Source: Pyrinomonadaceae bacterium
Lineage (GTDB): Bacteria; Acidobacteriota; Blastocatellia; Pyrinomonadales; Pyrinomonadaceae
Direction: 5' to 3'
NCBI GenBank assembly: GCA_036389675.1
Contig: DASVWI010000022.1
Span: forward strand, 1,112 to 65,111
Length of the DNA: 64,000 nucleotides
Under the pieces are notes generated by a model. The model made no database searches, was not told the DNA's origin, and saw nothing but the letters and a program-made list of their open reading frames with translations. This document shows positions 29,280 to 59,086 of the stretch, piece by piece; position 1 is the stretch's first letter, and each line of letters begins with the position of its first letter. A program made the position numbers and the translations under genes.

Positions 29280-29380
29280 AAGGCAAGGATGAAGGATGAA
29301 GGCGGAAGGATGAAAAGAATGCTTCTCTTTCTTGAGAGCTTTTACTTCATCCTTCATCCTTCATCCTTCATCCTTTATCT
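29280..29380. repeat. GGATGAA-arm hairpin element, type B, copy B1
   Basis: Left arm AAGGCAAGGATGAAGGATGAAGGCGGAAGGATGAA, right arm TTCATCCTTCATCCTTCATCCTTCATCCTTT. Fills the convergent gap 29271-29383. Confidence 0.75.
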
Positions 29381-29383
29381 TCT

Positions 29384-30250
29384 CTATTCCCCGCCGTACC
29401 TGATCTCCATCCGGCGAATCTGTAGACTGGCGAAAGCAAGCAGCAGCCCGGTCATGATTAAGAGGGTCGGGACGGCAACCCATGCCGGGGTCGGCTCGGC
29501 GACGATGGCGAATGGGCCTTCGGCGAGAGGAAGCGGCGAGAGCGATTGCAGGTAATGAATCACGCTCAGCTTTTTAAGGAGCGGCGGAAGCAGGAAGTTG
29601 ATGAACTCCCAACCATAGACGGCGAGCGCAGGGATAATGGGATTGCGAAAGAGCAAGCCTATCAGAAGAAAGACCGCGCCGTAGCCGGCGCACGCCAGAG
29701 CCGTGATCGCCAGATAGATGAGCGCGTACCTTAAGCCGTGCCCCTCGACAAGAAGTTTCATGCTGGCGCTGTAGCCTAGCGGCAGGTAGAGCAGTAGTAG
29801 CGAGACGGCTGTGGCCGAGACGAAAAGGATGAGCGAGGTCAGCAGGCCCGAAAGATATTTCCCGACGACCAGCACTTCCCTCCTGAGCGGCGAGAGAAAG
29901 TAATAGTGCAGGCTTCTGTCCACCACTTCGCCGCGAAAGAGATTCATAAATATCCAGGCGCAGCCGAAGAAGACGACCGTCCTCAGAATCAGTATCTCGT
30001 AGATGCCTGCGAACATCATGTTCAGGAAAGCCGGCTCGGCACGGCCTCCCACGTCCGGCGGAATCAGCGCTATCGCCGAGAACAGCAGGACGGGCAGCAG
30101 CGCGAGCAGGTAGATCAGTATGGCACGCCTGCCCCAGAAATTTTTCTTCACCTCAAGCCTGAGGATGGCAAGCACCTGCCGCATCCATAGAGTCCAGGGC
30201 AGCCCTTCCGCGGGCTTTGTGACGACGCTCGTGTCGGCCCGGCTGCTCAT
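29384..30250 (-). CDS. ABC-2 type permease-like membrane protein
   Basis: 288 aa with about 6 TM segments. 4-nt overlap with the upstream ATPase gene. Confidence 0.75.
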
Positions 30251-31203
30251 GACGGGTTGCCTCCTTCCGAACTGATCAGATATTGGTAGACGGCATTGAG
30301 ATCATCATCTACAGGCGCGACCGATTCGACGTTCAGGTTGTTTTCAAGCACGACGCGATTCAACAACAGGTAGAACTGGTCTGCGTCGCGTGTCTTGACA
30401 AAGAGGCCCTGGGCGTCGGTGTGCAGCCGCGCCTCGACCACAGCGTTGTGCTCGAAGACGCGTGCGGCCAGCACTCCCGGGCGGTCGCAACGGATGAGAA
30501 TCTGTATCGGGTGCTCGTCCATCTCGTCGCGCACGCCGTGAATATCACCCTCGGCGACGACATAACCGTTATTCAAGAGCACCACCTGATCCGACATCAT
30601 ATCAACTTCGTGCAGGATATGGCTCGAAATAACCAGATGTAGACCTTCCGAGGCGAGCTGACGAAAGAGGTTGATGGTTTCGGCGCGCGCCATCGGGTCA
30701 AGGCCGTTCAGAGGCTCGTCAAGAATCAGGACGGTCGGCCCGTGCGCGATAGACTGGGCCAAGCGTATGCGCTGGCGCATTCCCTTGCTATAGCCCGCCA
30801 CTTTTCTATTGGCAGCATCGGTCAGACCGACGCGCTCAAGCGCTTTGGCGCTCATCTCTTCGGACTCCCCGCGCGTGTAGCCCTGCACGCCCAGAAAAGA
30901 GGAGATGAACTGGCGACCCGTCAGCCCACCGGGGAAAGAATCGAACTGCGAGCAGTAGCCGACCTTGCGAAAAAGCTGTTCGGGCCGGTCGGGCTCTATG
31001 CCCAGAACACTGATGCGACCGCGCGTCGGGCGCAGCAGCCCCGTCATCAGATTCATGAGCGTAGTCTTGCCGGAGCCGTTTGGGCCAACGAGGCTCGTGA
31101 TGCCCGGCGCAATCGACAGATTGACGCGATTGACGCCGAGTATCTCGCCGTAGAATTTCGAGACATCGTCAAAGACGATCATCTGTGCAGAGGTTTCGTT
31201 CAT
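30247..31203 (-). CDS. ABC transporter ATP-binding protein
   Basis: Start trimmed to [11 protein letters not shown] (ATG at 31203, ATGA overlap with the upstream stop). Walker [10 protein letters not shown], signature YSKGMRQR, Walker B LILDEP. Confidence 0.85.
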
Positions 31204-32117
31204 CCGCGCACCACCTCGTAGGCTCGTACCCGGCGCGCGATCACTATCAGGCAGACCGCCGCGATCAGGAAGAGGACGAACCATGCCGTCCAGAGCGGCG
31301 GCTCCATCAGCACGATGTTCACGTCGCGCCCGTTGATCGTTCCCTGTATGTGGCCCGTCTGCCGCACGAAGATTCCGAACAACTGCGCCCACACGGCCCT
31401 CACGACGGCGCGCAGCGAGAGCAGATTCCCCCACCGCGTCATAAAGATGTTATTGATGATCTCCCCGAAGACCGAAGGGATGAAGAAGATGCCGAGCAGC
31501 GCGGCGCTCGCCGCCAGCCGCCACTTGACCAGCGCCGAGATGGCCTGCGACAGCAGCGCCAGCACAATGATCCACACCCAGCTTCCGAGAAAGATAGCGC
31601 CCGCCAGCTTGAGGTTCGCGGTAAACCACCCCAAGCCTCCCAGATAAGACTGGAACAGGAAGAGTAGAAGGCCCGGTATCCATGTGATCACCGACAGCAG
31701 TATAAAGACGACGGACATCTTGCCCAGCACATACTCGGCGCGCGTAAATGGCCTGCACAGGTAGAGCGGGAGCGCGTTGTTGGACAGGTCGCGCGAGATG
31801 AGGGGCGGGCCGACCAGCAGGTTGAGAAAGAAACCGAAGAAGCCCTGAGTGGCGACGAACGTGTAAAAGAAGTCTGCGTCAATCGGTATCAGGTCGCCAA
31901 TCGTCATCTTCATAATCGCCTTCGCGCTCTCGTTGTGCGGAAGGTAGATGACGATGGCCGCGATCAGCGGGTAGATCAGGCAGGCGACGAAGAAGGCGAT
32001 GAAGAACTTGGATTGAAAGACGCCCTGCAAGGCATGGCGCGGCAGTATCAGGAAGCGCGACCACAGCGGCGTCACTTCGCCCGCGTAGGGCCTGTAAGTG
32101 TGCTCATAAACTGCCAT
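31200..32117 (-). CDS. ABC-2 type permease-like membrane protein
   Basis: 305 aa, multi-TM. Overlaps both neighbouring genes. Confidence 0.7.
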
Positions 32118-33033: not shown

Positions 33034-33144
33034 CAGAAGTTGATTCTCTGTCTCTCTCGCCACAAAGGTCAAGCACAGCCAGCGAGCCAGCCGGGGATGG
33101 CGAACGCTAAGCTCGCTTCCCCCGGCTGGCGCACATGACTGACT

Positions 33145-36701: not shown

Positions 36702-36726
36702 ACGCGCCCAAAGGAGGGACACTTCC

Positions 36727-39505: not shown

Positions 39506-39590
39506 CCACGTATTATCATCCTCTCGTGCCCGAGCATGGCTCATACGGCCTCCGTCCCGTTCGAGCCCGCCAACCCTTACACTTCATCAG

Positions 39591-39631
39591 GTAGACCGTT
39601 TGTACGACGCGTGCAGCCGGTCTACTTTTTG
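39591..39631 (+). terminator. rho-independent terminator
   Basis: 8-bp stem GTAGACCG / CGGTCTAC followed by TTTTTG. Confidence 0.55.
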
Positions 39632-39691
39632 TTGGAGTAGGTTCGGTATAACATCTGTGCTGAAAGTGGATTCCGACATCGCTGGTCTGTA

Positions 39692-41230: not shown

Positions 41231-41471
41231 GGGATGAGGGATGAAAGGAATGGTGCTGGAAGATTTTCCGCTCCGTAGCAGCGCGCATGTCTATAGCTTC
41301 AGAACAGTATTTGATGAAGAAGCTCCGTCAGACGCGGCATGTGAAGATGTCTCTCCTGACTGAGCTTTCAACCAGTATGGATAGCCCGCATAACTATCGA
41401 CATCGAGTCCTTGCGGAGCTTCAATCAGCTTCCGACACGCTTGAATGCTTCTCCTTCATCCTTGCTTTTCC
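41231..41471. repeat. type B-like element with about 195-nt lower-GC insert (copy B5)
   Basis: Left arm GGGATGAGGGATGAAAGGAATG and right arm CTTCTCCTTCATCCTTGCTTTT bracket a lower-GC core. Fills the convergent gap and overlaps the last codons of the GT2 gene. Confidence 0.45.
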
Positions 41472-45562: not shown

Positions 45563-45870
45563 AACAGAATCTCCCTTAGCATTTTTCAGATGGCTACCAG
45601 AGTATCTGATTGCCACGATAATCTTCAAGCACACACAGAGCGGATGAAAGAAGGCCCGAAGGGGATTGTTTCCACTTCCGCTGCGCGTGCGCTGGGCTCG
45701 CCGTCTTGGTATATTGATGACGCCATGGCCCGGATGACTGAGGACAGAAGCGTCAGCGCTCGGCCCATCGGCCCTTGAACTCTCCCGTCTCTTACATTTG
45801 CTTTAAGCTCAAAAAATTTCCTGCTGATGGGAAAGCGGAAACGCTTGCCCGCTTTCAAGGGGGATTTCGG

Positions 45871-48800
45871 ATGTATAAGAACCTCGTCGAGATGCTGATC
45901 GACGGCAGCGTTGACGGCATTATCGCTTTCGATCAAGAGTGCCGCTATACGCTCTGGAACCCGGCGATGGAGCGGCTTTCGGGCGTCAGCCGTGAGGACG
46001 CTCTGGGCAAGTGCGCCTTCGATGTCTTCCCCTTCCTGAAAGAGACGGGAGAAGATCAATACTTCTACGACGCGCTGGCGGGAAAGAACGTGATCGCCAC
46101 GGATAGGGCCTTGACCGTTACGCAGACCGGGCACAGAGTTTTTTTCGAGGGCCGCTATTCTCCGCTGCAAGATGAGAGCGGAGAGATCGTCGGCGGCCTG
46201 TGCATCATCCGCGACATCACCGAGCGCAAGGAAGCCGAGGAAGAGCGCTCGCTGCTGATCGAGGAGCAGGCCGCCCGCCGCGAAGCCGAAGCCGCCGAGC
46301 GCCGCTTTCTGGAGGAGTTGCAGGAATCCGAGAAGCGCTTTCGTCAGCTTGCGGAAAATATTGACGAGGTCTTCTGGCTCACAGACCCCAACACGTCCGA
46401 GCTTATCTACGTCAGTCCCGCTTACGAGAGGATTTGGGGGCGCTCGCGCGAAAGCCTGTACAGTAATCCGTCCTCTTTCATCGAAGCCGTTCACCCGGAC
46501 GACCGCGAGCGCGTCATCGCCGCCCGCCCACGCGCACGCCTGGGCTCATATAATCAGGAGTATAGAATCAAGCGCCCGGACGGGACGATTCGCTGGGTGT
46601 GGGCGCGCGCCTTTCCCATCCGCGATGAACGGGGCGAGGTGACGCGCATCGCCGGTATCGTAGACGACATCACAGAGCGCAAGACAATCGAGCGCGATAT
46701 CAGCGAGCAGCGCGAGGTGGTCGAGACCGTCAACCACATAGGCCAGATTCTCTCCGCCGAGCTCGACCTGCAAAGACTGGTGCAGGCGGTGACGGATGCG
46801 GCCACGGAGTTGACGGGCGCGCATTTCGGCTCATTCTTCTATAACGTTTTGGATAAGCGCGGCGCTTCCTACATGCTCTACACGCTCTCGGGCGTGCCGC
46901 GCGAGGCCTTCGAGCATTTCCCCATGCCGCGCGCCACAGACCTCTTTGGGCCAACCTTCCGGGGCGAAGGGATTCTACGCATTGACGATGTCAGGCAAGA
47001 CCCGCGCTACGGCAAGAACTCTCCTTATTACGGCATGCCTCCCGGCCACCTGCCTGTGACGAGTTATCTGGCCGTGCCGGTCATCTCGCGCTCCGGTGAA
47101 GTACTGGGCGGGCTCTTCTTCGGCCATCCCGAACCGGGCAGGTTCACGCAGTACACAGAGCGTATCGTGACGGGGCTCGCCGCGCAGGCCGCCGTCGCCA
47201 TGGACAACGCTCGCCTGTATGAAGCCGCACAGCGCGAGCGCGCCCTGCTCGAAGCGAGCGAGGAGCGTTATCGCTCTCTGGCAGACGCCATGCCGCAGAT
47301 CGTCTGGACGGCGCGCGCCGACGGCTACACAGACTATTACAACCGGCGCTGGTTTGAGTACACGGGCTTCACCGAAGAGGAGAGCCTTGCCGAAGAGGGA
47401 TGGAAGAATGCACTTCACCCGGATGATGTCACGCCGAGCCGCGAGCGCTGGTATAGATGCGTTGACACGGGCACGGAGTACAAGATCGAGTATCGCTTCA
47501 GGCGCGCCTCCGATGGGACGTATCGCTGGCATCTCGGGCGCGCCCTCCCCATGCGCGACCAGGACGGTCAGATCGTCAGGTGGTTCGGAACGTCCACGGA
47601 TATTGACGATCAGAAGCGGGCCGAAGAATCTCTCAGATTCATAGTTGAGGCGAGCGAGATACTGTCGGAGTCGCTCGATTACGAGTCCACGCTGGCGAGC
47701 GTCGCACGGCTGGCCGTGCCTCGACTGGCCGACTGGTGCGCCGTCGATATGCTGGAACAGGGCCAGACCTTACGCCGGCTGGCCGTGGCCCATACCGATC
47801 AGGCGAAAATAGAGCTGGCGTTGGAACTTGAGCGCCTGTACCCGACGGACATGAACGCGCCCCACGGCCTGCCCGTAGTCCTGCGCACGGGTAAACCGGA
47901 ATGCGTCTCTGAGATATCGGATTCAATGCTGGCGGAGGCGGCGCGGGATGCAGAGCATCTGGGCTTTATCCGAGAGCTGGGCCTGAAGTCTTACATGATC
48001 GTGCCATTGATCGCGCGCGGGCGTACCCTTGGCGCAATCACCTTCGTCACGGATGAGTCCGGGCGGCAATACACGGAGGCAGACCTCTCGTATGCCGAAG
48101 ACCTTGCGCGCCGCGCCGCTCTGGCCGTTGATAACGCGCGCCTCTACCGCGAAGCGCAGGAAGCAAACCGCACGAAGGACGAGTTTCTTGCGACCGTTTC
48201 GCATGAGCTACGCACGCCGCTGACGGCTGTGCTCGGTTGGGCGCGCATCCTGCGCTCGGGCGGTATTGACCAGGCAACTGCGCTGCGCGCTCTTGAGACC
48301 ATCGAGCGCAATGCCAGATCGCAGGCACAGCTCGTCGAAGACCTGCTGGATGTCTCGCGCATCATTACGGGCAAGCTGCGACTGGATGTCAGGCCCGTAG
48401 AGTTGAAGTCCGTGATCGATCTCTCCATCGAAGCGATTCGCCCAGCCGCCGAAGCCAAGGGCGTCCGCCTACAGGTCGTGCTCGATCCGATGGCCGGGCC
48501 AATCTCCGGCGACCCTGATCGCTTGCAGCAGATCATCTGGAATCTGCTCTCGAACGCGGTCAAGTTCACCCCCAGAGACGGGCGCGTGCAGGTGCGCCTC
48601 GAACGCGTGCGCTCGCACGTCGAGGTCACCGTCAGCGACACCGGAATGGGAATCGAGCCGAAGTTTCTGCCTTTCGTCTTTGAGCGCTTTAGACAGGCAG
48701 ACGGCACGAGCACGCGTCAGTATGGCGGGCTCGGTCTGGGCTTAGCGATTGTGCGTCATCTGGTCGAGCTGCACGGCGGACAGGTTCGCGCCGCGAGCCC

Positions 48801-49356
48801 CGGCGAGAATCAGGGCTCGACCTTCACTGTCGAATTACCGCTCATGGCCGTTCAATCCGAGAGTAGCGAGCAGGAACACGCCGCGATTCCGACCGGCGAG
48901 AATTTTGCCGGGCTTGATATCACCGGAATCCTTGACGGCTTGAGAGTGCTGGTCGTTGACGATGAGGAGGATGCTCGCGTCTTGATCGCAACCATCCTCG
49001 AACAGCGCGGGGCAAAGGTTCTGAGCGTGCCTTCGGCCACGGAGGCACTCGAAACGCTGCCCGTGCTTCAACCCGATGTCATCATCAGCGATATAGAGAT
49101 GCCTTACGAGGACGGCTATGCGTTGATTAAAAAGATACGCGAGCTTGACCCGAAAGAGGGTGGCCGCACGCCCGCCGCCGCGCTCACCGCCTACGCCCGC
49201 ACGGAAGATCGCATGCGAGCCTTGCTGGCAGGCTTTCAGATTCATCTGCCCAAGCCCGTCGATCCCGCGGAGCTGATCGCCGTCGTCGCCAACCTCTCAG
49301 GACGCACAGGCCCGGGCATCTCGGAACACGACACATATTCCTACGGCGATCAATAA
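45871..49356 (+). CDS. hybrid sensor histidine kinase (PAS-PAS-GAF-PAS-GAF-HisKA-HATPase-REC)
   Basis: Start trimmed to MYKNLVEM. H-box [15 protein letters not shown] boxes ([26 protein letters not shown]), and a receiver [11 protein letters not shown]...DIEMPYEDG. Confidence 0.85.
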
Positions 49357-49608: not shown

Positions 49609-50679
49609 ATGACAAATACAACGAGACCGAAAGTGAATCCGCTCAGCCGCCGCCCGCGTCAGCAGCGGCTGGTGATGGCGGTGCGCGGTGGTGCCGGAAC
49701 AGGCAAGAGCCACTTCATACGCAGCATGTCCGAGGCCGGAATCGGTCGCCTGTGCATCTTCGACGTGGAGCGCAAGGCGCGACTCCTGAAGGGCGTCGGC
49801 ACACAGTTTGACGCCCTGGAGATTCATCACCCGGACGAGTTGCCGGAGTTCATCGACTGGGCGTTGTCCGGCGAGGGTCAGGATCAGAACTACGACTGCT
49901 TCGCTCTGGATTCCTGGGCCGCATATTTCAGCGCCAAGCATAGCGAAGTCGTCGCGGCGGTGCGCGAGAGGACTGGCGACCCGTTGGCCCAGCCGAGCGC
50001 CGAAGAGTTGGCTGCCGACCAGATGATCTTGCAGGGAGTCTTGAGGCGTCTCTGCATGGAGAGCGGCAAATCCGTCGTCATCGTGGATCAGATTCCGGCC
50101 AAAGGCAAAGAGTCCAAGGAGGATAACGAGATCGGGCGAGTGTTGCCGATGACGGCCAGCGGTCTCGAATACTTCGTCGACATCATGGTCGAGGTCTCCC
50201 TGCAGGAGCGCGAAGGCGAGGTCGTGCGTGTCTTCCAGATCGTCAAGAGCAACAGTCAGGCATTCGAGGTCGGCTATGAGATGGTCGGCGACGTGACGTT
50301 CAAGGATTTTCTTAATCACATGCAGCGCGAGGCCGGGACTGAGCTGCCGATGGAAGCGCCCAAGCCTTCGCCTGTTCCCGAGGTGCTCGAAGAGAAGCCT
50401 TCGCCGCTCAGCCTCGTTCCGCCCCCGATGACTATTCAGGAATTGATCGCCAAGGCAGAGCAGAACGGGTTCAAGGTCGCGGACATCGTCACGGGCGCTA
50501 AGCTCTATCACAGCCAGCCTAACATCTATCGTCTGACGCCCGAGCAGATCGCAGACCTCGACCGCCGCATGACAGCGCGCATCGAGAAACTTCAGGCGAC
50601 CGCCCCGGCAAAGCGCGAAAGCGCCTCGGGCGAAACCGGAACCAAAGCCCAGGCCACCCGCTCCCTCAAGCGAGCCTGA
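49609..50679 (+). CDS. P-loop ATPase, RecA-fold (AAA_24 / Sak4-like by eye) with an unknown C-terminal domain
   Basis: AAAGGAAAGG SD. Walker A GGAGTGKS and a Walker B-like VVIVDQ. The 439-aa antisense ORF was rejected. Confidence 0.6.
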   Translation: MTNTTRPKVNPLSRRPRQQRLVMAVRGGAGTGKSHFIRSMSEAGIGRLCIFDVERKARLLKGVGTQFDALEIHHPDELPEFIDWALSGEGQDQNYDCFALDSWAAYFSAKHSEVVAAVRERTGDPLAQPSAEELAADQMILQGVLRRLCMESGKSVVIVDQIPAKGKESKEDNEIGRVLPMTASGLEYFVDIMVEVSLQEREGEVVRVFQIVKSNSQAFEVGYEMVGDVTFKDFLNHMQREAGTELPMEAPKPSPVPEVLEEKPSPLSLVPPPMTIQELIAKAEQNGFKVADIVTGAKLYHSQPNIYRLTPEQIADLDRRMTARIEKLQATAPAKRESASGETGTKAQATRSLKRA

Positions 50680-50782
50680 AAGCAAGGATGAAGGATGAAG
50701 GCGGAAGGATGAAGTAAAAGCATTCAATGCAGTTGAAGCTTACCTTTCATCCTTCATCCTTCGGCCTTCATCCTTTCCCTTC
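50680..50782. repeat. GGATGAA-arm hairpin element, type B, copy B2
   Basis: AAGCAAGGATGAAGGATGAAGGCGGAAGGATGAAGTAAAAGC...TTTCATCCTTCATCCTTCGGCCTTCATCCTTT. Occupies the whole 103-nt gap between two convergent stop codons. Confidence 0.8.
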
Positions 50783-51916
50783 TTACCATCCGCGGTGAAT
50801 TTCCCAGCGGTCTGCTATACGGTTGCCTTCAAGGACGTTGTAGTGTGCGTGTTGGGCGGCGGTGAGGCAGGAGTGGTTGGCGAGCACGCGCAGGCGCGTT
50901 CCCGTCTTCAGGCGATCAAGCGTGCCCTCTTCTGCGACGCTGATCTCGCCGTGTTCCTGTGATAGTCCGCAGACCTTCAGGCCGAGGCTGTGCCCTTCCT
51001 CGTCCAGAACATGCCCGTAGCCGCAGGTCTCATCCAGCTCAACTGCGCCGCGATCTTTCGAGAGCGCAATCGCGCCGGCGTCTATGACGACCTTGCGGCG
51101 CGTGCGGTCGCGGTGTACGACTGCGGCCAGCACCGTCAGCGCGCAGTCGTCCAGACTACAGCTCCCGATGGCTGCCTGAAACGCGTCGAAGAAGATATAG
51201 TTGCCGGGCCGCGCTTCATCGATACCACGTAAGTGATCAATCGTCGTGATGGTCGGCGTCGAGCCGATGCTGACGGTCGGCACGGCGATGCCTTCGGCGC
51301 GCAGCCTTGCGGCGAAATCCGTCATCAGGTCGCGCTCGTGCCGCGCCACCGCGAGAACCTCTTCTCTCGTGCGGCAGTGATAGGAATGGCCCGCGTGTGT
51401 CAGGATGCCTGCGAATCTGAGATTTGATGAATCGTTGATGCGTCGCGGGATTTCAAACGCTTCGGGCACGGAGGGCTCGACGCCGCAGCGATGATAGCCG
51501 CAGTCGACTTTCAGAAAGAGGTCTAACCTGACCCCGGCAAGACGTGCCGCGTCGTTAAGCAGGGGAGGAATACTGGCGTCGTCTGTGATGAGAGACAGTC
51601 GCTCGCAGTCTCCGGCCAGTTGAATCGCTTCTTTGAACTTGCCGGGCTCTATCGGCACGGCGTACGTGATGTCATTAAAGCCGTGGGCCATGAAGGCGCG
51701 CGCTTCCGCCAGAGTGGAAACCGTCAGCGCACCCTTATGGCCTGCCGTCTGTATGCGCGCCACTTCGACGCACTTATGCGTCTTGACGTGCGGTCTGAGT
51801 ACGGCTCCCCTCTCGCGCACGTGGTTTCCGACTCTCGATGCGTTGCGCCTGACGCGCTCGACATCGAGCAGCAGGCAGGGAGTTTTCAATTCGTGAAGGC
51901 TCATCATAATCGTCAA
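50783..51916 (-). CDS. PLP-dependent D-serine dehydratase / D-threonine aldolase-like enzyme (alanine racemase N-domain, DSD1 family)
   Basis: TPCLLLDVERVRRN...LRPHVKTHK (PLP lysine context) and a C-terminal beta-domain with a HGH-like metal site region. Confidence 0.75.
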   Translation of the reverse strand: MTIMMSLHELKTPCLLLDVERVRRNASRVGNHVRERGAVLRPHVKTHKCVEVARIQTAGHKGALTVSTLAEARAFMAHGFNDITYAVPIEPGKFKEAIQLAGDCERLSLITDDASIPPLLNDAARLAGVRLDLFLKVDCGYHRCGVEPSVPEAFEIPRRINDSSNLRFAGILTHAGHSYHCRTREEVLAVARHERDLMTDFAARLRAEGIAVPTVSIGSTPTITTIDHLRGIDEARPGNYIFFDAFQAAIGSCSLDDCALTVLAAVVHRDRTRRKVVIDAGAIALSKDRGAVELDETCGYGHVLDEEGHSLGLKVCGLSQEHGEISVAEEGTLDRLKTGTRLRVLANHSCLTAAQHAHYNVLEGNRIADRWEIHRGW

Positions 51917-52445: not shown

Positions 52446-52568
52446 CGCGGCGGCGGAAACTACCTCTTGCCAGAAACAGCAGGCCGAGATGGCTTACGTG
52501 CTCGCCGCTTAGCTTTTCGCCGCGAGGGCGCTTCCCTTCCATATCCGTAACCGAGCGGAGACCGGCAC

Positions 52569-52922: not shown

Positions 52923-53175
52923 CGAGAGCCCTGCGCCTTAAGCGTTCAAAGCGCCTTGGCCCGGCCCAACCTTTGACGATTACTGTTCGCCTTACGGCCT
53001 CAAATTTTTCAGATTGATCGTGCGCCACCCGCCCGAAAATGTTATCCTCTCGGCCTGTAGCGACGAAGCAGGGGCAGGGCGTTTCAGCCGACGCGTTAAA
53101 AGGCCCGCCCCGCTGATTGATCGGCTTGCGAACAGAACCTTCCCCGGTTGCTCCCTTAAATTTGTGGAGGCTCAC

Positions 53176-53877
53176 ATGCGACGCGCTTTCTGTCTGGTAT
53201 TTCCCATTCTTCTCCTTCTCGCCGCGACCATTGAGGGGCAGGAGCTTCGCTCTGCCAAAGACTATCTGAAGCGCGGCATCTCGCGCTTCAGCAAGGGCGA
53301 CATCGAAGGCGCTATTGCCGACCACAACAAGGCGCTTGAGCTTAACCCGCGCTTCGCTGAAGCTCATTTCAATCGCGGCAAGGCGCTGCGGGCGAAGGGC
53401 GATCTGGACGCCGCGATTGACGATTACGAGAAGGCCATCGAGATCGACCCGCGCACGGCCAACAACAATCGCGACATCTCACAGGCTTACATCAACCGCG
53501 GCTACATCAGGTCTAACCAGTTGGATGTGGATGCGGCCATTGGCGACTACAATAAGGCCATCAAGTTCAACGCCAAGGACTCGGACGCCTACTTTAAGCG
53601 CGGGCGCGCGCTTTTAATCAAGGGCGATCTGGAAAGCGCGCTCATGGACTTCAATCGCAGCATCACGATTGATCCGCACAATCCCCTCTATTTTGCCGAG
53701 CGCGGGCTCACATGGATTCATCGCGGCAATGACGAAGAGGCCGAGAAGGATTTCGACAGGAGCATACGCCTGAACGGCGACACGAAGCTTTTTCTGGAAT
53801 GGCACATCATAGAGCTGGAGCTTCAGATCAAGGAGATGAAGCGACGCCAGGCAGCCATCCAACAAAGAATCGCCTGA
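53176..53877 (+). CDS. TPR repeat protein, secreted
   Basis: Start trimmed to MRRAFCLVFPILLLLAATIEG. Repeated A..D(Y/H)(N/E)KA(I/L)E(L/I)(N/D)P units. Confidence 0.75.
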   Translation: MRRAFCLVFPILLLLAATIEGQELRSAKDYLKRGISRFSKGDIEGAIADHNKALELNPRFAEAHFNRGKALRAKGDLDAAIDDYEKAIEIDPRTANNNRDISQAYINRGYIRSNQLDVDAAIGDYNKAIKFNAKDSDAYFKRGRALLIKGDLESALMDFNRSITIDPHNPLYFAERGLTWIHRGNDEEAEKDFDRSIRLNGDTKLFLEWHIIELELQIKEMKRRQAAIQQRIA

Positions 53878-53965
53878 AAGCAAGGATGAAGGCGGAAGGA
53901 TGAAGTAAAAGCGATGTTGGATGACTCAATTAACGTAGCCACACTTTCATCCTTCATCCTTTCTC
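53878..53965. repeat. GGATGAA-arm hairpin element, type B, copy B3
   Basis: Fills the 88-nt gap between convergent stops. About 90% identical, in reverse orientation, to copy B4 including its loop. Confidence 0.8.
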
Positions 53966-56488
53966 TTAATGCCCGCCGTTTCGTCCCGCCAGAGTGGCGA
54001 TCAGTTTTGAGAGCCGGGCTAATTCGACCGGCTTCGTCAGATGCTCCTGATAGCCAGCCGAGATGGCGCGCCGCCGGTCTTCTTCCCTGACATAAGCCGT
54101 TAGCGCCACGGCTGGCAAGCTGCCCCCGTTCTGCTTCTGCTCCAAAGCCCGCACAGCGCGAATCAGATCATAGCCGTCTTCGCCGGGCATGCCGATGTCC
54201 GACACCAGCACGTCCGGTCTTGCCTGTTCAAGGGCGGCCAGAGCCTCGGCTGCTGACGAAGCGGTCGTAACACACGCCCCACACTGTTCCAGCGATTTAC
54301 GCAGCAGGTCGCGCGCGTCCTCATCGTTATCAACGACGAGGACTCTCACGTCCTGAAGCTGCGGCTCGCGGGCCGTGCCCGCAAGGTCTTCTTCTGATTG
54401 GTAGGCGAAGACCTCATCGCCTGTCTCCTGTCGCACGGCCCTCACAGGCAGGTCTAAAATGAAAGTCGCGCCGCGCCCCTCTCCTTCGCTTTCTGCGCGG
54501 ACGCTGCCGCCATGCATCTCGACCAGATGACGCACAATCGCGAGGCCCAGACCGAGCCCGCTGTGTGCCCTCGTGCTGGTGCTGTCGGCCTGCCGAAAGC
54601 GGTCGAACACGTAGGGCAGAAACTCCGCGTTGATGCCTTGGCCCGTATCGCTCACCACAATCTGCGTGTGCGAGTTAACGCGTTCGAGGCGCACGGTGAT
54701 GAGCCCCTCCTTCGGCGTGAACTTGACGGCATTCGAGAGCAGATTCCAGATGACTTGCTGCAAGCGATTGGCGTCGCCCCAGATCAGGCTGGCTTTGGGG
54801 TTTATAATCTTCTCTATACGAATCTGCTTGGCTTCGGCTGCCGGGTGGACGGAGGCTATGGCCGCATCGATCACTTCCTTGAGATCAAAGGGGCGAACCG
54901 TCAGGCTGGATTTTCCTGTGATGATGCGCGAGACATCCAGTATGTCTTCGATAAGCTGCGCCTGCGCGTTGGCGTTGCGCTCGATGGTGGCGAGGGCCTG
55001 AGCGCGGGTCGCCTCGTCCAGCTTGCCTGACTGAAGCAGGCTGAGCCATCCGAGCACAGCCGTCAAGGGCGTGCGTAGCTCGTGCGAGAGAGTCGCCAGG
55101 AATTCGTCCTTGAGACGGTTGGAGGATTCGGCGGTGGCGCGAGCGCTGCTCTCAAGCTCGAAGAGCCGCACGTTTTCGATTGCCACCGCCGCCAGATTCG
55201 CCGCCATGCGAATCGCCGCGACGTGCTCTTTCGTATATGCCCCCAGCTCGTAGCTCTGCACCTCTATAGTTCCGACGATGCGGCCCATGACGGCCATCGG
55301 CGCGGCCATGGAAGACTGCGGCAACAGTCCGTTATCCACGCCGACCTTCACGCTCGGATGCCCGCGCGTCGCGGCCAGATAATCGTCCGTGATGATGATC
55401 TCGCCCGTCCTGACGGCGCGGCTGTTCGGGCCGTCCGTGGTGATGGGCATCGGCGGCAGATTGGATACGTCGACCTCCGCGCCGTCGCCCCACGCGTAGG
55501 CGGCCCGACGCACATTTTGTTTCGGGTCGTAGAGGGCGATGAAGATTCCTATGCATGGCATGGAGGCGCATGTGAAATCCTGTAGGGCACGAAAGATCGT
55601 CCGAAGATCGCGCGCCGTCCCGAGCGCCTGTGCGAGCGGCGTCAGACGTTCGAGCAACCCTTCATATTCCGTGAGCGCGCGGCGCTCTGCTGCGCGCAAG
55701 GCTTCTTCCGCGCGCTGGCGCTCCGTCAGATCGGCGGAGACGCCGACGATGCCGACCATCTTTCCTTCATCATAGATCGGCGTGTCCGTGACCATCGCCG
55801 GAAAGGTCTCGCCGTCGCGACGCCGAACCAGCATCTCGCCCGACCAGCTCTTGCCGGACTTCAGGCTCGACATAATCTCCGCGGCCTGTCCCTGTGCCGT
55901 CTCCGTGGGGGTGATTTCGATGATGTTACGACCGAGCGCTTCGGCAGCGGGCCAGCCGTAGAGCCTTTCCGCGAACCTGTTCCAATAGGTGATGATTCCG
56001 TCCAAATCCGTGGCGATCACGGCTTGCTCGACCGTATCCAACAGGTGGGCCTGAAAACGTATCGTCTCTTCGACCTTCTGCCGCTCCGCGATCTGCTGCT
56101 CCAGCTCGGCCTGCCGCTGCCGTGCCGTTCGGGCATTGGCCTCCGCTCGCCGCCGCGCCCTGTGCATCTCATGGCTGAGCGATGAGCCGATGATGCCGAC
56201 GCTAAGATAGAGGGCGAGGCCGATGACGTGTGACGGGTCTTCGAGCGCCATTGCGTTAAGAGGTGGAAGGATAAAATAGACGGCTAAGACAGCACCGAGC
56301 AGGAGGGCCAGTATGGCCGGGCCAAGCCCGCAGGCCCATGCGACGAATAGCACCGCGAGATAGTATGTGACGTAAGGAGCTGTGTCGCCTATCACCGGAT
56401 TGAGCGACAGACGCAGGAGCGTCGCCAGAAGGACGCTCGCCACGGCGAGAGAATAGCGCAGACCGGGGGAACGGTTAATCACCTGCAT
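53966..56488 (-). CDS. hybrid sensor histidine kinase (DUF4118-like TM, PAS, GAF, HisKA-HATPase, REC)
   Basis: KdpD-type N-terminal membrane module, H-box [13 protein letters not shown], receiver VLVVDNDEDAR...DIGMPGEDG. The transmitter is a close paralog of the 45871-49356 kinase. Confidence 0.85.
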   Translation of the reverse strand: MQVINRSPGLRYSLAVASVLLATLLRLSLNPVIGDTAPYVTYYLAVLFVAWACGLGPAILALLLGAVLAVYFILPPLNAMALEDPSHVIGLALYLSVGIIGSSLSHEMHRARRRAEANARTARQRQAELEQQIAERQKVEETIRFQAHLLDTVEQAVIATDLDGIITYWNRFAERLYGWPAAEALGRNIIEITPTETAQGQAAEIMSSLKSGKSWSGEMLVRRRDGETFPAMVTDTPIYDEGKMVGIVGVSADLTERQRAEEALRAAERRALTEYEGLLERLTPLAQALGTARDLRTIFRALQDFTCASMPCIGIFIALYDPKQNVRRAAYAWGDGAEVDVSNLPPMPITTDGPNSRAVRTGEIIITDDYLAATRGHPSVKVGVDNGLLPQSSMAAPMAVMGRIVGTIEVQSYELGAYTKEHVAAIRMAANLAAVAIENVRLFELESSARATAESSNRLKDEFLATLSHELRTPLTAVLGWLSLLQSGKLDEATRAQALATIERNANAQAQLIEDILDVSRIITGKSSLTVRPFDLKEVIDAAIASVHPAAEAKQIRIEKIINPKASLIWGDANRLQQVIWNLLSNAVKFTPKEGLITVRLERVNSHTQIVVSDTGQGINAEFLPYVFDRFRQADSTSTRAHSGLGLGLAIVRHLVEMHGGSVRAESEGEGRGATFILDLPVRAVRQETGDEVFAYQSEEDLAGTAREPQLQDVRVLVVDNDEDARDLLRKSLEQCGACVTTASSAAEALAALEQARPDVLVSDIGMPGEDGYDLIRAVRALEQKQNGGSLPAVALTAYVREEDRRRAISAGYQEHLTKPVELARLSKLIATLAGRNGGH

Positions 56489-56653
56489 CCGTCAAACTCC
56501 TTGATCGAAGGTACAGCGGAGAGCGGCGCGCCGCGGATGACTCCGAGCTTAAAGCTCTTTATCGTCGGCGAATCAGAGCAGAAGCGCGGAAACCCTTATG
56601 TTGCCGGGCACATTACGAAAGCGCCGGGGCTCGCGGGCCGTGCTCCTCCCGAT

Positions 56654-57646
56654 TCAACGTGTGTATCCGGCTGGATGATCTATCTCTATGTTCGGCATTT
56701 CCGACTTCACCTGTATGCGGTGGTATCCCTTCTTCGGGTGCGTCGAAAGATATGTGATCGCCATCTGACGGGCGAAAGAGACGCCGAGCTCGCGCAGGAA
56801 GGGGTCGAAGCTGACGGGCGCTCCCGTCCCCTGAAAGAAGGCCCGCCCGCCCGTCTCTTCCGAAAGCTTTTGCAGCGAGCCCAGAGCATTGCTGGTGAGG
56901 AGTTGATTGCGTGATGCTTCCAGCGTCACGGTCGGCACATAAAAAGAGTAGATGGCGACGCTGTTTCGCTGCGCCTCTTTGACGGCGCGCTCAAGGTCTA
57001 TGCTCTGGCCCGGCGGCGAGCTATCGACCCCGCGCGAAACGTCCAGACCGTCCGTGACGACGAGCATCGCACGCCGACCGGCAGGCAGCGACTCGAAACG
57101 CTTGAGCCCCTCGCGTATCTCGACGTAAGGGTTGAAGGGGGCGGCGCTCGCCGAGCCGATGGGGATGCGCAGCGCGTTCGCGGCCCGCTCAAGATCGGTC
57201 GTGAACTTCTGGCGCACCTGTAGCGAACCGCTTCTGATGTAACCGATCATCACGCGCGAGCCTCGCGGCAGACGACCGATGAACTCTTTCATCGCCTTGA
57301 TCTCGTTGCCAATGGTCGGGACGACATCATCCTGTATCAGTATGGCGACAGAGAGGGGCGCATTGCTGATCGAGCGCACAGAGAGGACTCTCTGGACATC
57401 GCCGTCCTCGCGCACGATGAAATCTCCGACCGGCGTAAGCTCCTGCTCCGGCCTTTTGCCGCGCTCGCGAATCGTAATCGGGATGGTCACCGTCTTGACA
57501 CCGCCGCGAGTCCCCTGCCCGCCGGCAGGGTCTTCATCCTCGACATTGCCTAAGCGTCTCTGCCCGCTCGCGGTCAATCCCGACGCCATGCAAATGAGCA
57601 CGACGATAAACATGCTGCTTAAGAATCTTCTGTATTTTGTAGGCAT
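56654..57646 (-). CDS. VWA domain protein (acidobacterial VWFA-related, TIGR03436-like)
   Basis: Start trimmed to MPTKYRRFLSSMFIVVLIC. MIDAS-region layout (LSVAILIQDD..., MLVVTDGLD), and a C-terminus resembling TIGR03436 proteins as I recall them. Confidence 0.7.
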   Translation of the reverse strand: MPTKYRRFLSSMFIVVLICMASGLTASGQRRLGNVEDEDPAGGQGTRGGVKTVTIPITIRERGKRPEQELTPVGDFIVREDGDVQRVLSVRSISNAPLSVAILIQDDVVPTIGNEIKAMKEFIGRLPRGSRVMIGYIRSGSLQVRQKFTTDLERAANALRIPIGSASAAPFNPYVEIREGLKRFESLPAGRRAMLVVTDGLDVSRGVDSSPPGQSIDLERAVKEAQRNSVAIYSFYVPTVTLEASRNQLLTSNALGSLQKLSEETGGRAFFQGTGAPVSFDPFLRELGVSFARQMAITYLSTHPKKGYHRIQVKSEMPNIEIDHPAGYTR

Positions 57647-57886
57647 TGATTTCCGGCCCTCTCCATTATGGCGGTGACAGACGGAATTATACATCCTGCC
57701 ATGCATAAAGCGGATAGCCCGCGGACATATCTGCCGCGATTGGCTAAGGGCTGCCCGTCAGAGTATGATTTTGACTCGGACTTTGGCAGCCGGAGTGGAA
57801 ATTCTCGTCAGTTGAGACGGGCGGCGCTTGACGGGCCTTGAAATGATTTTAAGAGGGCTTCGATTCTGAAAGAGATAGGAACTGCA

Positions 57887-58699
57887 ATGAGTGGAACTGG
57901 CTCGGGCTATGAAATCACAAAGGGAGACCGCCTCGTCGCTTCTCTGCTAAAGATTGCGCCGTGGCTCTCCTTCTTCATAGTCGCGCTGCCCGCCCCTCTC
58001 TTCTTTCTGCTGCGCTACTTCACGACGACCGGAGAGGCGGCCATCTATATCCTGCTCGCCCTCTCCTCGCTGGCCGTAGGCTCCATCGCGGGGCTGATCG
58101 TGATGATCTCTCTTTTGATGTATCGCAGGTACTGGGCCAAGCAGATGCGCAATAAGCTGGCGGCTGATGGCGTCACTGCGGACGAACTGTCCTGGTTCAT
58201 GCCGGAGTTGACGACGGCTGAGCGGCGCGCTCTCAGGGAGATGGAGGCGCAGAACCCGCTGCTGGCAGACGCCTATCGCGAGACGTTGGCCCAAAGAGTG
58301 ACGGCGGCTCGGGTCGTCGCCACGGCCAAGCGTGATCTGCTCAGCGTCGAGCGCCGCCTGAACCGCGTCTCTTATCTCAAAGGCACGGACACGACAACCT
58401 TGCAGGGAGAGTTGCGCGCCGACCGCGCGCGTCTTGAACGCGCGCACCTTGAGGGACAGGAGCGGCGCGCCGAGGCAGAGGCCCGACTGCACACGATTGA
58501 AGCGGCGGCGACACGCGGCGCAAGCTGGACGGAGATGACTTTCGCCTTGCAGCGTTTGAGCACGGCGCGCGAGCATATTCCTCTGGGGCTGGAAGCCGCG
58601 CGGCTTGAGCAGCAGTCGCGTGAGGCAGTCGACAGGGAGATACAGGAGATGGACAAGCGCACCGCGCTCAGCGACGGAGGAACAGCAGGACATGAATGA
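57887..58699 (+). CDS. hypothetical membrane protein: 2 TM segments and a long Arg/Glu-rich coiled coil
   Basis: 270 aa. TM helices at about residues 24-45 and 52-78, then heptad-like RAEAEARL... segments. Confidence 0.55.
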   Translation: MSGTGSGYEITKGDRLVASLLKIAPWLSFFIVALPAPLFFLLRYFTTTGEAAIYILLALSSLAVGSIAGLIVMISLLMYRRYWAKQMRNKLAADGVTADELSWFMPELTTAERRALREMEAQNPLLADAYRETLAQRVTAARVVATAKRDLLSVERRLNRVSYLKGTDTTTLQGELRADRARLERAHLEGQERRAEAEARLHTIEAAATRGASWTEMTFALQRLSTAREHIPLGLEAARLEQQSREAVDREIQEMDKRTALSDGGTAGHE

Positions 58700-58988
58700 G
58701 GAACAGCCGCACACGACCGGTATCAGCCTGATACGCATGGACGAAGGCCGCTGGCGCGTCTTTATAGACGGCGCTGACATGGGCACATCGTTTCAATTTC
58801 CATGGGATGCGCTGCAATGTGCCTTCAACGGCTCTCTGACCGGCAAACCTCTGAATAACCTGCAAACCATAGAGATACAGGCGACCAACACCACAGACCA
58901 TCACCGCCTCGCGCGTATCCGCGCCGCGCAGGCAGAACAACGTGCCCTCCTCGCCGCCCTCCGCGGCATAGACGGCGATGGAATCTAA
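58692..58988 (+). CDS. hypothetical 98-aa protein, translationally coupled to the upstream gene
   Basis: The ATG at 58692 overlaps the upstream stop by 8 nt. No family recognised. Confidence 0.45.
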   Translation: MNEEQPHTTGISLIRMDEGRWRVFIDGADMGTSFQFPWDALQCAFNGSLTGKPLNNLQTIEIQATNTTDHHRLARIRAAQAEQRALLAALRGIDGDGI

Positions 58989-59086
58989 GAGCAAGGATGA
59001 AGGATGAAGGATGAAAGTGTGGCTACGTTAATTGAGTCATCCAACATCGCTTTTACTTCATCGTTGCCGCCTTCATCCTTGCTTTC
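58989..59086. repeat. GGATGAA-arm hairpin element, type B, copy B4 (inverted relative to B3)
   Basis: GAGCAAGGATGAAGGATGAAGGATGAAAGTGTGGCTACGTTAATTGAGTCATCCAACATCGCTTTTACTTCATCGTTGCCGCCTTCATCCTTGCTTTC. The right end overlaps the last codons of the minus-strand gene. Confidence 0.8.

What the first reader, a model, noticed from the sequence alone, without database searches (positions are those of the whole stretch)
29280..59086. Family of GGATGAA-arm hairpin elements (type B) that exactly fill five convergent-gene junctions
The five copies are B1 29280-29380, B5 41231-41471, B2 50680-50782, B3 53878-53965 and B4 58989-59086.

Each has arms built from tandem GGATGAA(G) units (AAGCAAGGATGAAGGATGAAGGCGGAAGGATGAAGTAAAAGC ... 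TTTCATCCTTCATCC) around variable loops. Every copy lies between two convergent stop codons and occupies essentially the whole gap.

B3 and B4 are about 90% identical over about 95 nt, loop included, but in opposite orientation. That argues for recent copying rather than convergent terminator evolution.

A minimal CCTTCAT/ATGAAGG hairpin sits at a sixth convergent junction (17523-17546). The loops share TAAAAGC/AAGCATTCA with the type A elements.

The family looks like a REP, MITE or PATE-type nonautonomous element doubling as a bidirectional terminator. No transposase or RAYT gene is in the window.
Basis: partly seen in the sequence, partly recalled or inferred. Interest (0 to 1): 0.65.

Follow-up and report, generated by a model that had tools for sequence, protein, structure and literature searches.

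The report
Heptamer-repeat hairpins capping convergent gene ends
Five gaps between converging genes in this soil acidobacterium (family Pyrinomonadaceae) are filled by long hairpins whose arms are tandem GGATGAA units; they most likely act as two-way transcription stops and supply stop codons, and they belong to the poorly understood class of 7-base repeats rather than to a proven jumping element.

Summary
B1-B4 are very stable hairpins with arms of tandem GGATGAA/GGCGGAA heptamers. B5 is the same shell around a unique ~190-nt insert. Each fills a convergent junction from stop codon to stop codon.

The REP/MITE reading is only partly supported. I found no transposase, no target-site duplication and no GTAG motif.

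Orthologous regions from five Pyrinomonadaceae lineages show:
- B2 and B4 are old positions.
- B3 is a recent gain; a relative has an empty site with overlapping stops.
- Unit numbers vary by multiples of 7 nt.
- A 15-nt asymmetric motif lies on opposite strands in orthologues.
- B3 and B4 resemble each other within each of two genomes, which indicates concerted evolution.

Flanking genes end inside the elements (…KQG*). 120 AlkZ-like orthologues carry 111 different C-terminal tails.

The same GGATGAA/GGCGGAA arrays occur in more than 10 phyla and in viral contigs. About half of the genome sites are inverted pairs.

Closest known kind: dispersed intergenic heptameric repeats (Xanthomonas GGGAATC, cyanobacterial STRR, TAACTGA).

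Best reading: bidirectional terminator or 3'-end hairpins that evolve by slippage and recombinational copying. Function is inferred, not shown.

The parts
29271..29383 (-). B1. Hairpin with four heptamer units per arm (AAGGATG AAGGATG AAGGCGG AAGGATG / four CATCCTT units). It fills the gap between TAA (29268-29270) of the DUF4440 gene and the stop (29384-29386) of a minus-strand gene. Orientation is taken from GGATGAAGTAAAAGC, which lies on the minus strand.
   Evidence: (-60.3 kcal/mol, z -8.2)
41231..41470 (-). B5. B-type termini (GGGATGAGGGATGAAAGG ... CCTTCATCCTTGCTTTTCC) around a unique ~190-nt insert. The minus-strand GT2 gene ends inside the right arm (...LEKQG*, stop at 41456-41458).
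50678..50785 (+). B2. Hairpin running from the GA of the upstream TGA stop (50677-50679) to TTA (50783-50785, the TAA stop of the D-Ser-dehydratase-like gene). A backup in-frame reading KQG* follows the first stop.
   Evidence: (-49.8 kcal/mol, z -8.0)
53876..53968 (+). B3. Hairpin between the TPR gene (...RIA*, then in-frame KQG*) and the histidine kinase stop (53966-53968). It is a near copy of B4 in inverted orientation.
   Evidence: (I4, 66 nt, 98%)
58986..59086 (-). B4. Hairpin between the TAA of a 98-aa gene (58986-58988) and the AlkZ/YcaQ-like gene. That gene's last four codons (RKQG*, stop at 59073-59075) lie in the element.
   Evidence: (-38 kcal/mol, z -5.2)
17523..17546 (.). Minimal CCTTCAT/ATGAAGG 7-bp hairpin at another convergent junction. 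It may be a relic or a seed, but it is not statistically distinguishable from chance.
   Evidence: whole 58-nt gap folds at -14.8 kcal/mol, z -1.97
5412..5511 (+). Type A copy 1. Hairpin with arms GGGGATGGACAGAGAGGGTCAGGATAAAGA and the loop motif AAGCATTC shared with the B elements. It sits at a tandem junction.
   Evidence: (I8, D16)
7459..7565 (+). Type A copy 2, at a tandem junction. A third copy lies outside the window at about L368:18419-18516.
   Evidence: (I10)
3888..3991 (.). A further heptamer-arm hairpin (GAGTGAC AGGTGAC GAGCGGC ...) of the GTGAC type. This is the type that replaces B4 in a relative (L203).
   Evidence: (-39.7 kcal/mol)

Best explanation
The B elements are palindromic modules made of tandem heptamers (GGATGAA with the co-unit GGCGGAA) that sit at the 3' ends of transcription units.

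**How it most likely works (inferred)**
- On either strand the transcript first meets the purine-rich arm (GGAUGAA)n. Every unit carries UGA, so three units give a stop in every frame.
- It then meets a short loop and the complementary pyrimidine arm (UUCAUCC)n, followed by a U/C-rich tail.
- The module therefore ends translation and folds into a 20-30-bp hairpin.
- That hairpin most likely terminates transcription in both directions, blocks 3' exonucleases, or both.
- This keeps convergent genes from reading into each other with no spare spacer.

**How it arises and changes (partly shown)**
- Arms grow, shrink and swap unit types by 7-nt slippage.
- The two arms are kept complementary.
- The loop can flip between the inverted arms.
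- Nearby copies homogenise each other by recombination or gene conversion. The B3/B4 pair is the example.
- Loops accept nested insertions. B5 is an example, as are B3 and B4 of a relative.
- New junctions are occasionally colonised by copying (B3).

No dedicated transposase is needed in this picture. The family is a lineage-specific case of the dispersed intergenic heptameric repeats known from Xanthomonas, cyanobacteria and Beggiatoaceae.
For: **Shown**
- Strong hairpins on both strands.
- Stop-to-stop occupancy of five convergent gaps.
- Host ORFs end in, or one codon-triplet before, the element's in-frame AAG CAA GGA TGA on four junction sides.
- 120 AlkZ-like orthologues (80-100% identity to the window's protein) have 111 distinct tails of 0-31 aa after the conserved GVY. 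Many read as translated heptamers, for example RLRDEG*, KKKGMKDEG* and KAVMSDE*.
- The histidine kinase ends GGH* in the window, GGHQA* at the empty site and GGHQKQG* in a 94% relative.
- B2 is a B-type hairpin in four of five lineages. B4 is a heptamer hairpin in five of six. So a hairpin is kept at these positions while its sequence turns over.
- Two assemblies of one population differ by exactly 14 nt, which is two units. TTCATCC and TTCCGCC swap within a population (L201, L202 and L206).
- GGATGAAGTAAAAGC lies on opposite strands at the orthologous B2 junction.
- B3 and B4 are near-copies within the window (98%) and within the relative (94% over 113 nt). Between the two genomes the loops are unrelated.
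- Orthologous AACGATG-type hairpins (L127, L138, L142) keep pairing through changes on both sides at 6 pairs.
- After the last pyrimidine unit the next 9 nt are 47% T and 74% T+C, against about 20% T background (137 genome sites and 168 viral sites).
- Related Pyrinomonadaceae loci carry many period-7 tracts with many different units, about half of them as inverted pairs.

**Literature**
- Heptamers are the most over-represented long simple repeats in many bacteria.
- Xanthomonas GGGAATC repeats are about 90% intergenic and lie on average 28 nt from the upstream ORF end.
- About 70 of 186 of those sites pair up as convergent inverted repeats (PMC4692102; PMC4679880).
Against: - No transcript 3'-end data exist, so termination is inferred.
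- The tails are only moderately U-rich. This genome also has canonical terminators with true U-tracts (8443-8534; 39506-39691).
- A stop codon inside the 5' arm means a terminating ribosome would melt part of the stem.
- In other genomes the same arrays also occur at divergent junctions and as single arrays without a partner. 55% of genome sites and 77% of viral sites are single. A terminator role cannot explain all of them.
- The next convergent junction outside the window has no element.
- Pairing could be kept by DNA-level palindrome homogenisation rather than by selection on RNA.
- The covariation counts rest on 4-5 sequences and on alignments made ambiguous by the repeats.
- How B3 was seeded at a site with no prior hairpin is not explained.
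Confidence: 0.5

Rival explanations
1. The B family is a non-autonomous mobile element (MITE, REP/REPIN-like, or a small hairpin-targeting repeat). A transposase encoded elsewhere in the genome or on a phage moves it. Any terminator activity is a side effect.
For: - Shared non-palindromic termini and inner motifs among copies.
- B3 is present in the window and in a 94% relative, but the site is empty in an 89% relative.
- The window's B3/B4 loop type is found at a different junction (B2) in another lineage, L209.
- Element types replace one another at one junction between 94%-identical orthologues (P0004 against P0001).
- Nested insertions in loops.
- Many copies per viral contig.
- Cross-phylum spread with the specific co-unit GGCGGAA.
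Against: - No target-site duplication at any boundary examined.
- No GTAG.
- No transposase, RAYT or integrase in the window or in about 20 kb of five related lineages.
- B2 and B4 are positionally conserved.
- B3 and B4 co-vary within genomes, which fits gene conversion better than repeated transposition.
- Orientation is not stable at an orthologous site.
- The arms are variable-number repeats, not a fixed terminal inverted repeat.
Confidence: 0.2
2. The arrays are functionless by-products. Polymerase slippage favours 7-nt units. Inverted repeats are tolerated only outside coding sequence and are made symmetrical by template switching. So they pile up in the only free DNA there is, the gaps after stop codons.
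For: - Extreme turnover of units, unit numbers and loops.
- Many different heptamer units in related genomes.
- Presence in every intergenic context, and as single arrays.
- No function could be found for the Xanthomonas and Nostoc heptamer repeats despite experiments (PMC4692102).
Against: - A hairpin is retained at the B2 and B4 junctions over 87-95% protein identity while its sequence changes.
- In the window, 5 of 8 convergent junctions carry B-type elements and none of the other junctions does.
- The same two units recur across phyla far above composition-matched controls: at least 120 stretches against 18-19.
- The two-transversion variant CG outnumbers every single-step variant.
- The tails after the pyrimidine arm are T-rich.
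Confidence: 0.2
3. The purine arm is a protein- or ribosome-binding array. AAGGAUG matches the GGA-centred core of CsrA/RsmA sites (from memory of the SELEX consensus RUACARGGAUGU) and resembles a Shine-Dalgarno sequence. The pyrimidine arm resembles the anti-Shine-Dalgarno tail. On this reading the hairpin masks or titrates such sites.
For: - In some viral contigs single arrays, with GGAGGAA units, end a few bases before an ATG. Those sequences were printed but no ORFs were called there (L218, L246).
- MacGregor proposed S1, Csp or CsrA binding for TAACTGA repeats upstream of start codons (PMC4679880).
Against: - In the window every copy is at a convergent junction with no downstream start codon.
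- The GGA motifs are buried in very stable stems.
- Other heptamer families at the same junctions (GTGACGA, AACGATG, GGCAGTA) have no such resemblance.
Confidence: 0.05

Closest known systems
Dispersed intergenic heptameric simple repeats: Xanthomonas GGGAATC, Nostoc GGGGA(C/T)T, Calothrix STRR, Beggiatoaceae/cyanobacterial TAACTGA (PMC4692102, PMC4679880; Mrazek 2007 as cited there)
   Same: - 7-nt unit and 2-5 units per array.
- One or two preferred units per genome, spread over many intergenic sites.
- Arrays lie close to the end of the upstream ORF.
- A large fraction occur as convergent inverted pairs able to form stem-loops.
- Lengths differ between close relatives at conserved positions.
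- The distribution across phyla is patchy.
- Function is unknown.
   Different: - The unit is different (GGATGAA with co-unit GGCGGAA) and is not G-quadruplex-forming.
- Copies share termini and loop motifs beyond the repeat itself.
- They abut or overlap stop codons on both sides and supply the stop for host genes.
- Concerted evolution, loop flips and nested insertions are documented here. They are not mentioned in the parts of those papers I read.
REP/BIME and REPIN elements with RAYT transposases (Enterobacteria, Pseudomonas; PMC3116915)
   Same: - Extragenic palindromes, often at the 3' ends of genes and between convergent genes.
- Proposed roles in mRNA stabilisation and termination.
- They occur singly and in inverted pairs.
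   Different: - REPs are fixed 20-40-nt palindromes with a 5' GTAG, mobilised by a RAYT that they flank.
- Here the arms are variable-number heptamer arrays, there is no GTAG and no RAYT was found.
Terminator-forming MITEs such as Neisseria Correia elements (from memory)
   Same: - Roughly 100-150-nt inverted-repeat elements in intergenic DNA.
- They fold as hairpins, can end transcripts and can alter gene ends.
   Different: - Correia elements have defined terminal inverted repeats and a TA target duplication.
- No duplication is seen here, and the element ends coincide with stop codons.
Bidirectional intrinsic terminators at convergent gene pairs
   Same: - One hairpin is shared by two converging transcription units.
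- The flanks are A-rich on the 5' side and U-rich on the 3' side (GAAAG ... CUUUC).
- A canonical example is in the same window at 8443-8534.
   Different: - The stems are far longer (20-30 bp with internal loops) and the loops are 20-45 nt.
- The U-tract is weak.
- The sequence is shared between sites, and a stop codon lies inside the stem.

Membership tests
Intergenic heptameric simple-sequence repeats / inverted heptamer pairs | Tandem units of exactly 7 nt, at least 2-3 units per array | tested here: met
   Arms are AAGGATG x2-4 with AAGGCGG variants.
Intergenic heptameric simple-sequence repeats / inverted heptamer pairs | Intergenic, close to the end of the upstream ORF | tested here: met
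   All five copies start 0-10 nt from a stop codon or overlap it. In other genomes the gaps are mostly -20 to +30 nt.
Intergenic heptameric simple-sequence repeats / inverted heptamer pairs | A substantial share of arrays occur as convergent inverted pairs | tested here: met
   All window copies are pairs. 55 of 122 genome sites and 36 of 156 viral sites have a partner, against 16 and 8 in the control.
Intergenic heptameric simple-sequence repeats / inverted heptamer pairs | Unit-number variation between close relatives at the same locus | tested here: met
   L201 and L202 differ by 14 nt. The window, L201, L203 and L209 differ in unit count at B2.
REP/REPIN-RAYT | Conserved GTAG (or similar tetranucleotide) 5' of a fixed short palindrome | tested here: not met
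   The termini read GAAAGCAAGG.../...CCTTGCTCTTA. There is no GTAG, and arm length varies.
REP/REPIN-RAYT | A RAYT (Y1 HUH transposase) gene in the genome, typically flanked by the repeats | tested here: inconclusive
   None in the 64-kb window (Pfam) or in the precomputed Pfam labels of L120, L201-L210 and L368. The rest of the genome (contig 1.99 Mb) could not be scanned.
MITE | Target-site duplication flanking the terminal inverted repeats | tested here: not met
   The B3 flanks are CCT|...|ATG and the B4 flanks are ATA|...|GAT. Comparison of the filled B3 site with the empty site in L203 shows no duplicated bases.
MITE | A parent insertion sequence with the same terminal inverted repeats | not testable with these tools
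   This needs a whole-genome scan of the source and related MAGs.
Intrinsic (Rho-independent) terminator | Stable RNA hairpin directly followed by a U-tract | tested here: inconclusive
   The hairpin criterion is clearly met. The tails are U/C-rich, with 47% T in 9 nt against 20% background, but they are not a run of U. The simple consensus scan does not flag them because of its loop-size limit.
Intrinsic (Rho-independent) terminator | Transcript 3' ends map to the tail | not testable with these tools
   No transcriptome data are available.
Any Rfam RNA family | Score at or above the gathering threshold | tested here: not met
   The only hits are 3 tRNAs and a c-di-GMP-I riboswitch. There is nothing at the elements.

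The most novel reading that the evidence does not exclude
The GGATGAA/GGCGGAA hairpin is not just local slippage. It would be a sequence-specific module shared by horizontal transfer, partly phage-borne, among Acidobacteriota, Planctomycetota, Chloroflexota, Verrucomicrobiota, Cyanobacteria and others. A conserved factor or a dedicated copying mechanism would recognise it, and it would install a combined 'stop in all three frames plus two-way terminator' cassette at gene ends, rewriting protein C-termini as it goes.
Probability: 0.15. Interest if true: 0.75.

Novelty: new member of a known kind. Interest (0 to 1): 0.45.

Why it matters
- Heptameric repeats are the most over-represented long simple repeats in many free-living bacteria, yet they still have no accepted function.
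- This locus and its orthologues give an unusually clear picture of their life cycle: gain at an empty site, slippage, loop flipping, concerted evolution and nested insertions.
- They also show a concrete consequence for proteins. Stop codons are donated by the repeat, which gives hypervariable C-terminal tails.
- The data point to a testable role as two-way terminators in a phylum (Acidobacteriota) where termination signals are little studied.
- There is a practical warning for annotation. Gene 3' ends and short C-terminal extensions in these genomes are set by unstable repeats.

Tried and rejected
- **Rfam at gathering thresholds:** nothing at the elements.
- **Full-text search for GGATGAAGGATGAA:** no paper. 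A search for heptameric repeats plus hairpin and terminator returned only general terminator papers. Mrazek 2007 (PMC1895974) is not held.
- **Simple promoter/terminator scan:** it does not see the elements, and its total equals the shuffle expectation.
- **Orthologues of the D-Ser-dehydratase-like gene in JGI metagenomes:** 80 loci, but only 68-75% identical and with different downstream neighbours. This was too distant to test presence or absence of B2. The AlkZ-like protein gave the close relatives that were needed.
- **Target-site duplications:** looked for at B2, B3 and B4 and against the empty B3 site. None found.
- **Transposase or RAYT:** none in nearly all window ORFs (three were not scanned).
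- **Extending the source contig:** two look-ups failed on start-codon choice and one worked. The one new convergent junction has no element.
- **T content beyond the outermost predicted pair:** uninformative, because the A-rich and U-rich flanks pair with each other. It was replaced by the measure taken after the last repeat unit.
- **'Stops in all three frames' as a general property of heptamer hairpins:** rejected. Units such as GTTTCGA and TGGGTGC have no stop on either strand.
- **Covariation statistics:** weak, because the repeats make the alignments ambiguous.

Full report
**1. What is in the window**

GGATGAAGG occurs 17 times against 0.53 expected, and 15 of the hits fall in the five elements.

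B1 and B2 fold into very stable hairpins on both strands. The values are -60/-57 and -50/-49 kcal/mol, with z about -8. B4 (-38/-37) and B3 (-27/-25) are weaker but still significant.

B5 is a B-type shell around about 190 nt of unique sequence.

When oriented by the asymmetric motif GGATGAAGTAAAAGC, B1 and B4 are on the minus strand and B2 and B3 on the plus strand. The copies share:
- a 5' terminus, (T)GAAAGCAAGGATGAAGG;
- a 3' terminus, CCTTCATCCTT(G/T)CYCTTA;
- a loop motif, AAGCATTC, whose five occurrences in the window all lie in A- or B-type hairpins.

B3 and B4 are 98% complementary over 66 nt, loop included.

**2. Position**

I used a GC3-based ORF model and, for B2-B4 only, the JGI gene calls for the source contig. 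Every copy lies between convergent genes and fills the gap.
- Five of the eight convergent junctions in the window carry a B element.
- One has a canonical terminator (8443-8534).
- One has only the 7-bp 'minimal' hairpin. The whole gap that contains it folds at z about -2, so it is not distinguishable from chance.
- One (24165-25045, 881 nt) carries neither a B element nor a terminator that I identified.
- Tandem junctions carry other hairpin types: type A at 5412-5511 and 7459-7565, and a GTGAC-heptamer hairpin at 3888-3991.
- In 8 kb fetched beyond the window, the one new convergent junction has no element.

**3. The elements define gene ends**

The AlkZ-like gene next to B4 and the GT2 gene next to B5 end ...KQG*, using the first TGA of the arm. 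The genes on the plus side of B2 and B3 stop at a TGA three codons earlier in the same frame: A* KQG*.

Among 120 orthologues of the AlkZ-like protein (80-100% identical to the window's protein; those that carry a source name are labelled Pyrinomonadaceae or Acidobacteriota), the protein is conserved up to GVY. It then carries 111 different tails of 0-31 residues. Many are plainly translated heptamers, such as RLRDEG*, KKKGMKDEG*, QRRDEGGGMRDE* and KAVMSDE*.

This also identifies the source as a Pyrinomonadaceae bacterium (Acidobacteriota) from JGI metagenome 3300034143.

**4. Comparison of orthologous junctions**

Regions from five further lineages were fetched: 94%, 89%, 88%, 87% and 86% identity of the AlkZ-like protein. 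Gene order is conserved in four of them.

| Junction | Window | 94% lineage (L201/L206) | 89% lineage (L203) | 88% lineage (L207) | 87% lineage (L209) | 86% lineage (L210) |
|---|---|---|---|---|---|---|
| B2 | B-type | B-type, different loop and unit number | B-type, different loop and unit number | AACGATG-type hairpin | B-type, different loop | no comparable junction (gene absent) |
| B4 | B-type | B-type plus ~200-nt GC-rich palindromic insert in the loop | GTGACGA-type heptamer hairpin | GGATGAG/GGATGAA variants | GGATGAG/GGATGAA variants | none |
| B3 | B-type | B-type plus nested insert | empty: the two stops overlap (CAAGCTTAAGCG) | unrelated spacer | unrelated spacer | no comparable junction (gene absent) |

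So a hairpin is retained at B2 and B4 while its sequence turns over. B3 is a gain within the 94%-or-closer clade.

**5. How the copies change**

- Two assemblies of one population differ by exactly two units (14 nt) at B2. Another pair differs by a TTCATCC/TTCCGCC swap at B3.
- The 15-nt GGATGAAGTAAAAGC lies on the strand proximal to the dehydratase gene in L201 and on the other strand in the window. The loop has therefore flipped, as expected for recombination or template switching between inverted arms.
- In the 94% relative, the B3 and B4 inserts are 94% identical over 113 nt in inverted orientation. In the window, B3 and B4 are 98% identical. The loops of the two genomes are unrelated.
- Within-genome similarity that exceeds orthologous similarity is the signature of concerted evolution between two inverted copies 5 kb apart. 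This removes the main argument for recent transposition.
- The window's B3/B4 loop is homologous to the B2 loop of L209. Loops therefore do move between junctions, by a mechanism not yet identified.

**6. The wider phenomenon**

*Related genomes.* In about 0.8 Mb of related metagenome loci, period-7 tracts are far commoner than period-8 or period-9 tracts. They use many different units (GGCAGTA, GTTTCGA, AGTGATG, CCGTAAA and others), and about half are inverted pairs. The thresholds for different periods were not strictly comparable.

At the dehydratase 3' end, different lineages carry AAGGATG-, AACGATG- or AATGATG-type arms. Each type shows the same GATG/GCGG alternation. Orthologous AACGATG hairpins keep pairing through changes on both sides at 6 pairs.

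By my reading of the record titles these comprise:
- about 26 Acidobacteriota;
- about 26 Planctomycetota;
- about 18 Chloroflexota;
- Verrucomicrobiota, Cyanobacteria, Proteobacteria, Bacteroidota and others.

NN is AT in 70 loci and CG in 36 loci. No other dinucleotide exceeds 5 loci, although CG is two transversions away from AT.

*Viral contigs.* In IMG/VR the pattern again hit the limit, at 120 stretches or more. Two same-composition control patterns gave 19 and 18. Some viral contigs carry four copies in 4-7 kb, or arrays of 16-18 units.

*Partners, context and tails.*
- 45% of genome sites and 23% of viral sites have an inverted partner, against 13% and 5% in the control.
- Contexts elsewhere are mostly tandem, then divergent and convergent. 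The hairpin usually starts within a few bases of a stop codon.
- After the last pyrimidine unit, the next 9 nt are 47% T against about 20% background.

**7. What is known**

Rehm et al. 2015 (PMC4692102) describe GGGAATC repeats in Xanthomonas:
- about 186 per genome and about 90% intergenic;
- on average 28 nt from the upstream ORF end;
- about 70 convergent inverted pairs;
- variable between species at conserved positions.

They also describe GGGGAYT repeats in Nostoc, and they cite Mrazek 2007 for the general excess of heptamers and the slippage idea. No function was found.

MacGregor 2015 (PMC4679880) describes TAACTGA repeats shared by Beggiatoaceae, Cyanobacteria and Bacteroidetes, and suspects horizontal transfer.

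The B family fits this class on every defining feature tested. It fails the tested features of REP (no GTAG) and of MITE (no target duplication). No transposase or RAYT was found in the sequence that could be searched.

**8. Interpretation**

The best-supported reading is a two-way terminator or 3'-end hairpin module. It also guarantees translation stops, and it evolves by heptamer slippage, arm-to-arm correction, loop flipping, ectopic conversion and occasional seeding of new junctions.

- Shown: the anatomy, the gene-end effects and the evolutionary dynamics.
- Inferred: the termination function and the recombinational copying mechanism.

Rivals are a genuinely mobile non-autonomous element, a functionless slippage by-product, and a protein- or ribosome-binding array. 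The cross-phylum and phage-borne excess of this particular unit pair is the least explained observation.

Noticed in passing
Genome-contig loci L001-L119; viral loci L211-L330: GGATGAA arrays with the specific co-unit GGCGGAA occur in more than 10 bacterial phyla and in IMG/VR viral contigs. Counts are at least 120 stretches against 18-19 for two composition-matched control heptamer patterns. CG, a double transversion from AT, is by far the commonest variant of the middle unit.
   Followed up: partly
L218:7602-7714 and L253:2515-2641 (IMG/VR contigs): Uninterrupted (GGATGAA)16-18 arrays in two near-identical viral contigs. Shorter arrays with GGAGGAA units end a few bases before an ATG, which looks like repeated Shine-Dalgarno-like sites.
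   Followed up: no
L201:10880-11090 and L201:16190-16365 (also L202, L205, L206): A ~200-nt GC-rich composite palindrome (GAGCCCCTGAAAGGGGC, GTAGCCCACGACGTGAGTCGTGGGTAC, AGCCCCGGAGGGGCGTAAGA...) is nested in the loops of both the B3 and B4 elements of a 94% relative. The two copies are inverted and 94% identical. Heptamer-hairpin loops appear to act as landing pads.
   Followed up: partly
L203:12040-12060 / L204:11815-11835: Empty B3 site. The histidine kinase and TPR genes converge with overlapping stop codons inside the palindrome GCTTAAGC.
   Followed up: yes
window 14877-14968 (-): A c-di-GMP-I riboswitch (48.9 bits; gathering score 35) lies upstream of the minus-strand pilM-pilN-pilO-secretin gene cluster (8923-14555). 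This suggests c-di-GMP control of type IV pilus assembly genes.
   Followed up: no
window 5412-5511, 7459-7565; L368 about 18419-18516: Type A hairpins form a three-copy family with conserved arms GGGGATGGACAGAGAGGGTCAGGATAAA, all at tandem junctions. They share the loop motif AAGCATT(C/A) with the B elements.
   Followed up: partly
window 61803-62065: Nine or more tandem 18-nt repeats (TCCGACGGCGTGCTCGTC-like) lie inside the 660-aa ORF 60213-62195. This is a 6-residue coding repeat in a protein I did not scan against Pfam; the source's precomputed labels list no family for it.
   Followed up: no
window 48166-48874 vs 54412-55120: About 700 nt are 71-73% complementary between two PAS/GAF hybrid histidine kinase genes (45775-49356 + and 53966-56488 -). 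These are diverged paralogues in inverted orientation.
   Followed up: no
L151, L165, L169 vs L160 (just after the dehydratase-like gene): Near-identical contigs (98-99%) differ by a long palindromic insertion (GCCGCCTCCCGTGCGGAAAGCCTCTGGCTTTCCGT ... ACGGAAAGCCAGAGGCTTTCCGCACGGGAGGCGGC). This is a different hairpin element with presence/absence polymorphism.
   Followed up: no
window 2634-2894 and 33073-33144: Other unusually stable intergenic structures: -95.9 kcal/mol over 261 nt, and a GC-rich 26-bp hairpin at -39.5 kcal/mol. They lie between co-directional genes and are not built from heptamers.
   Followed up: no
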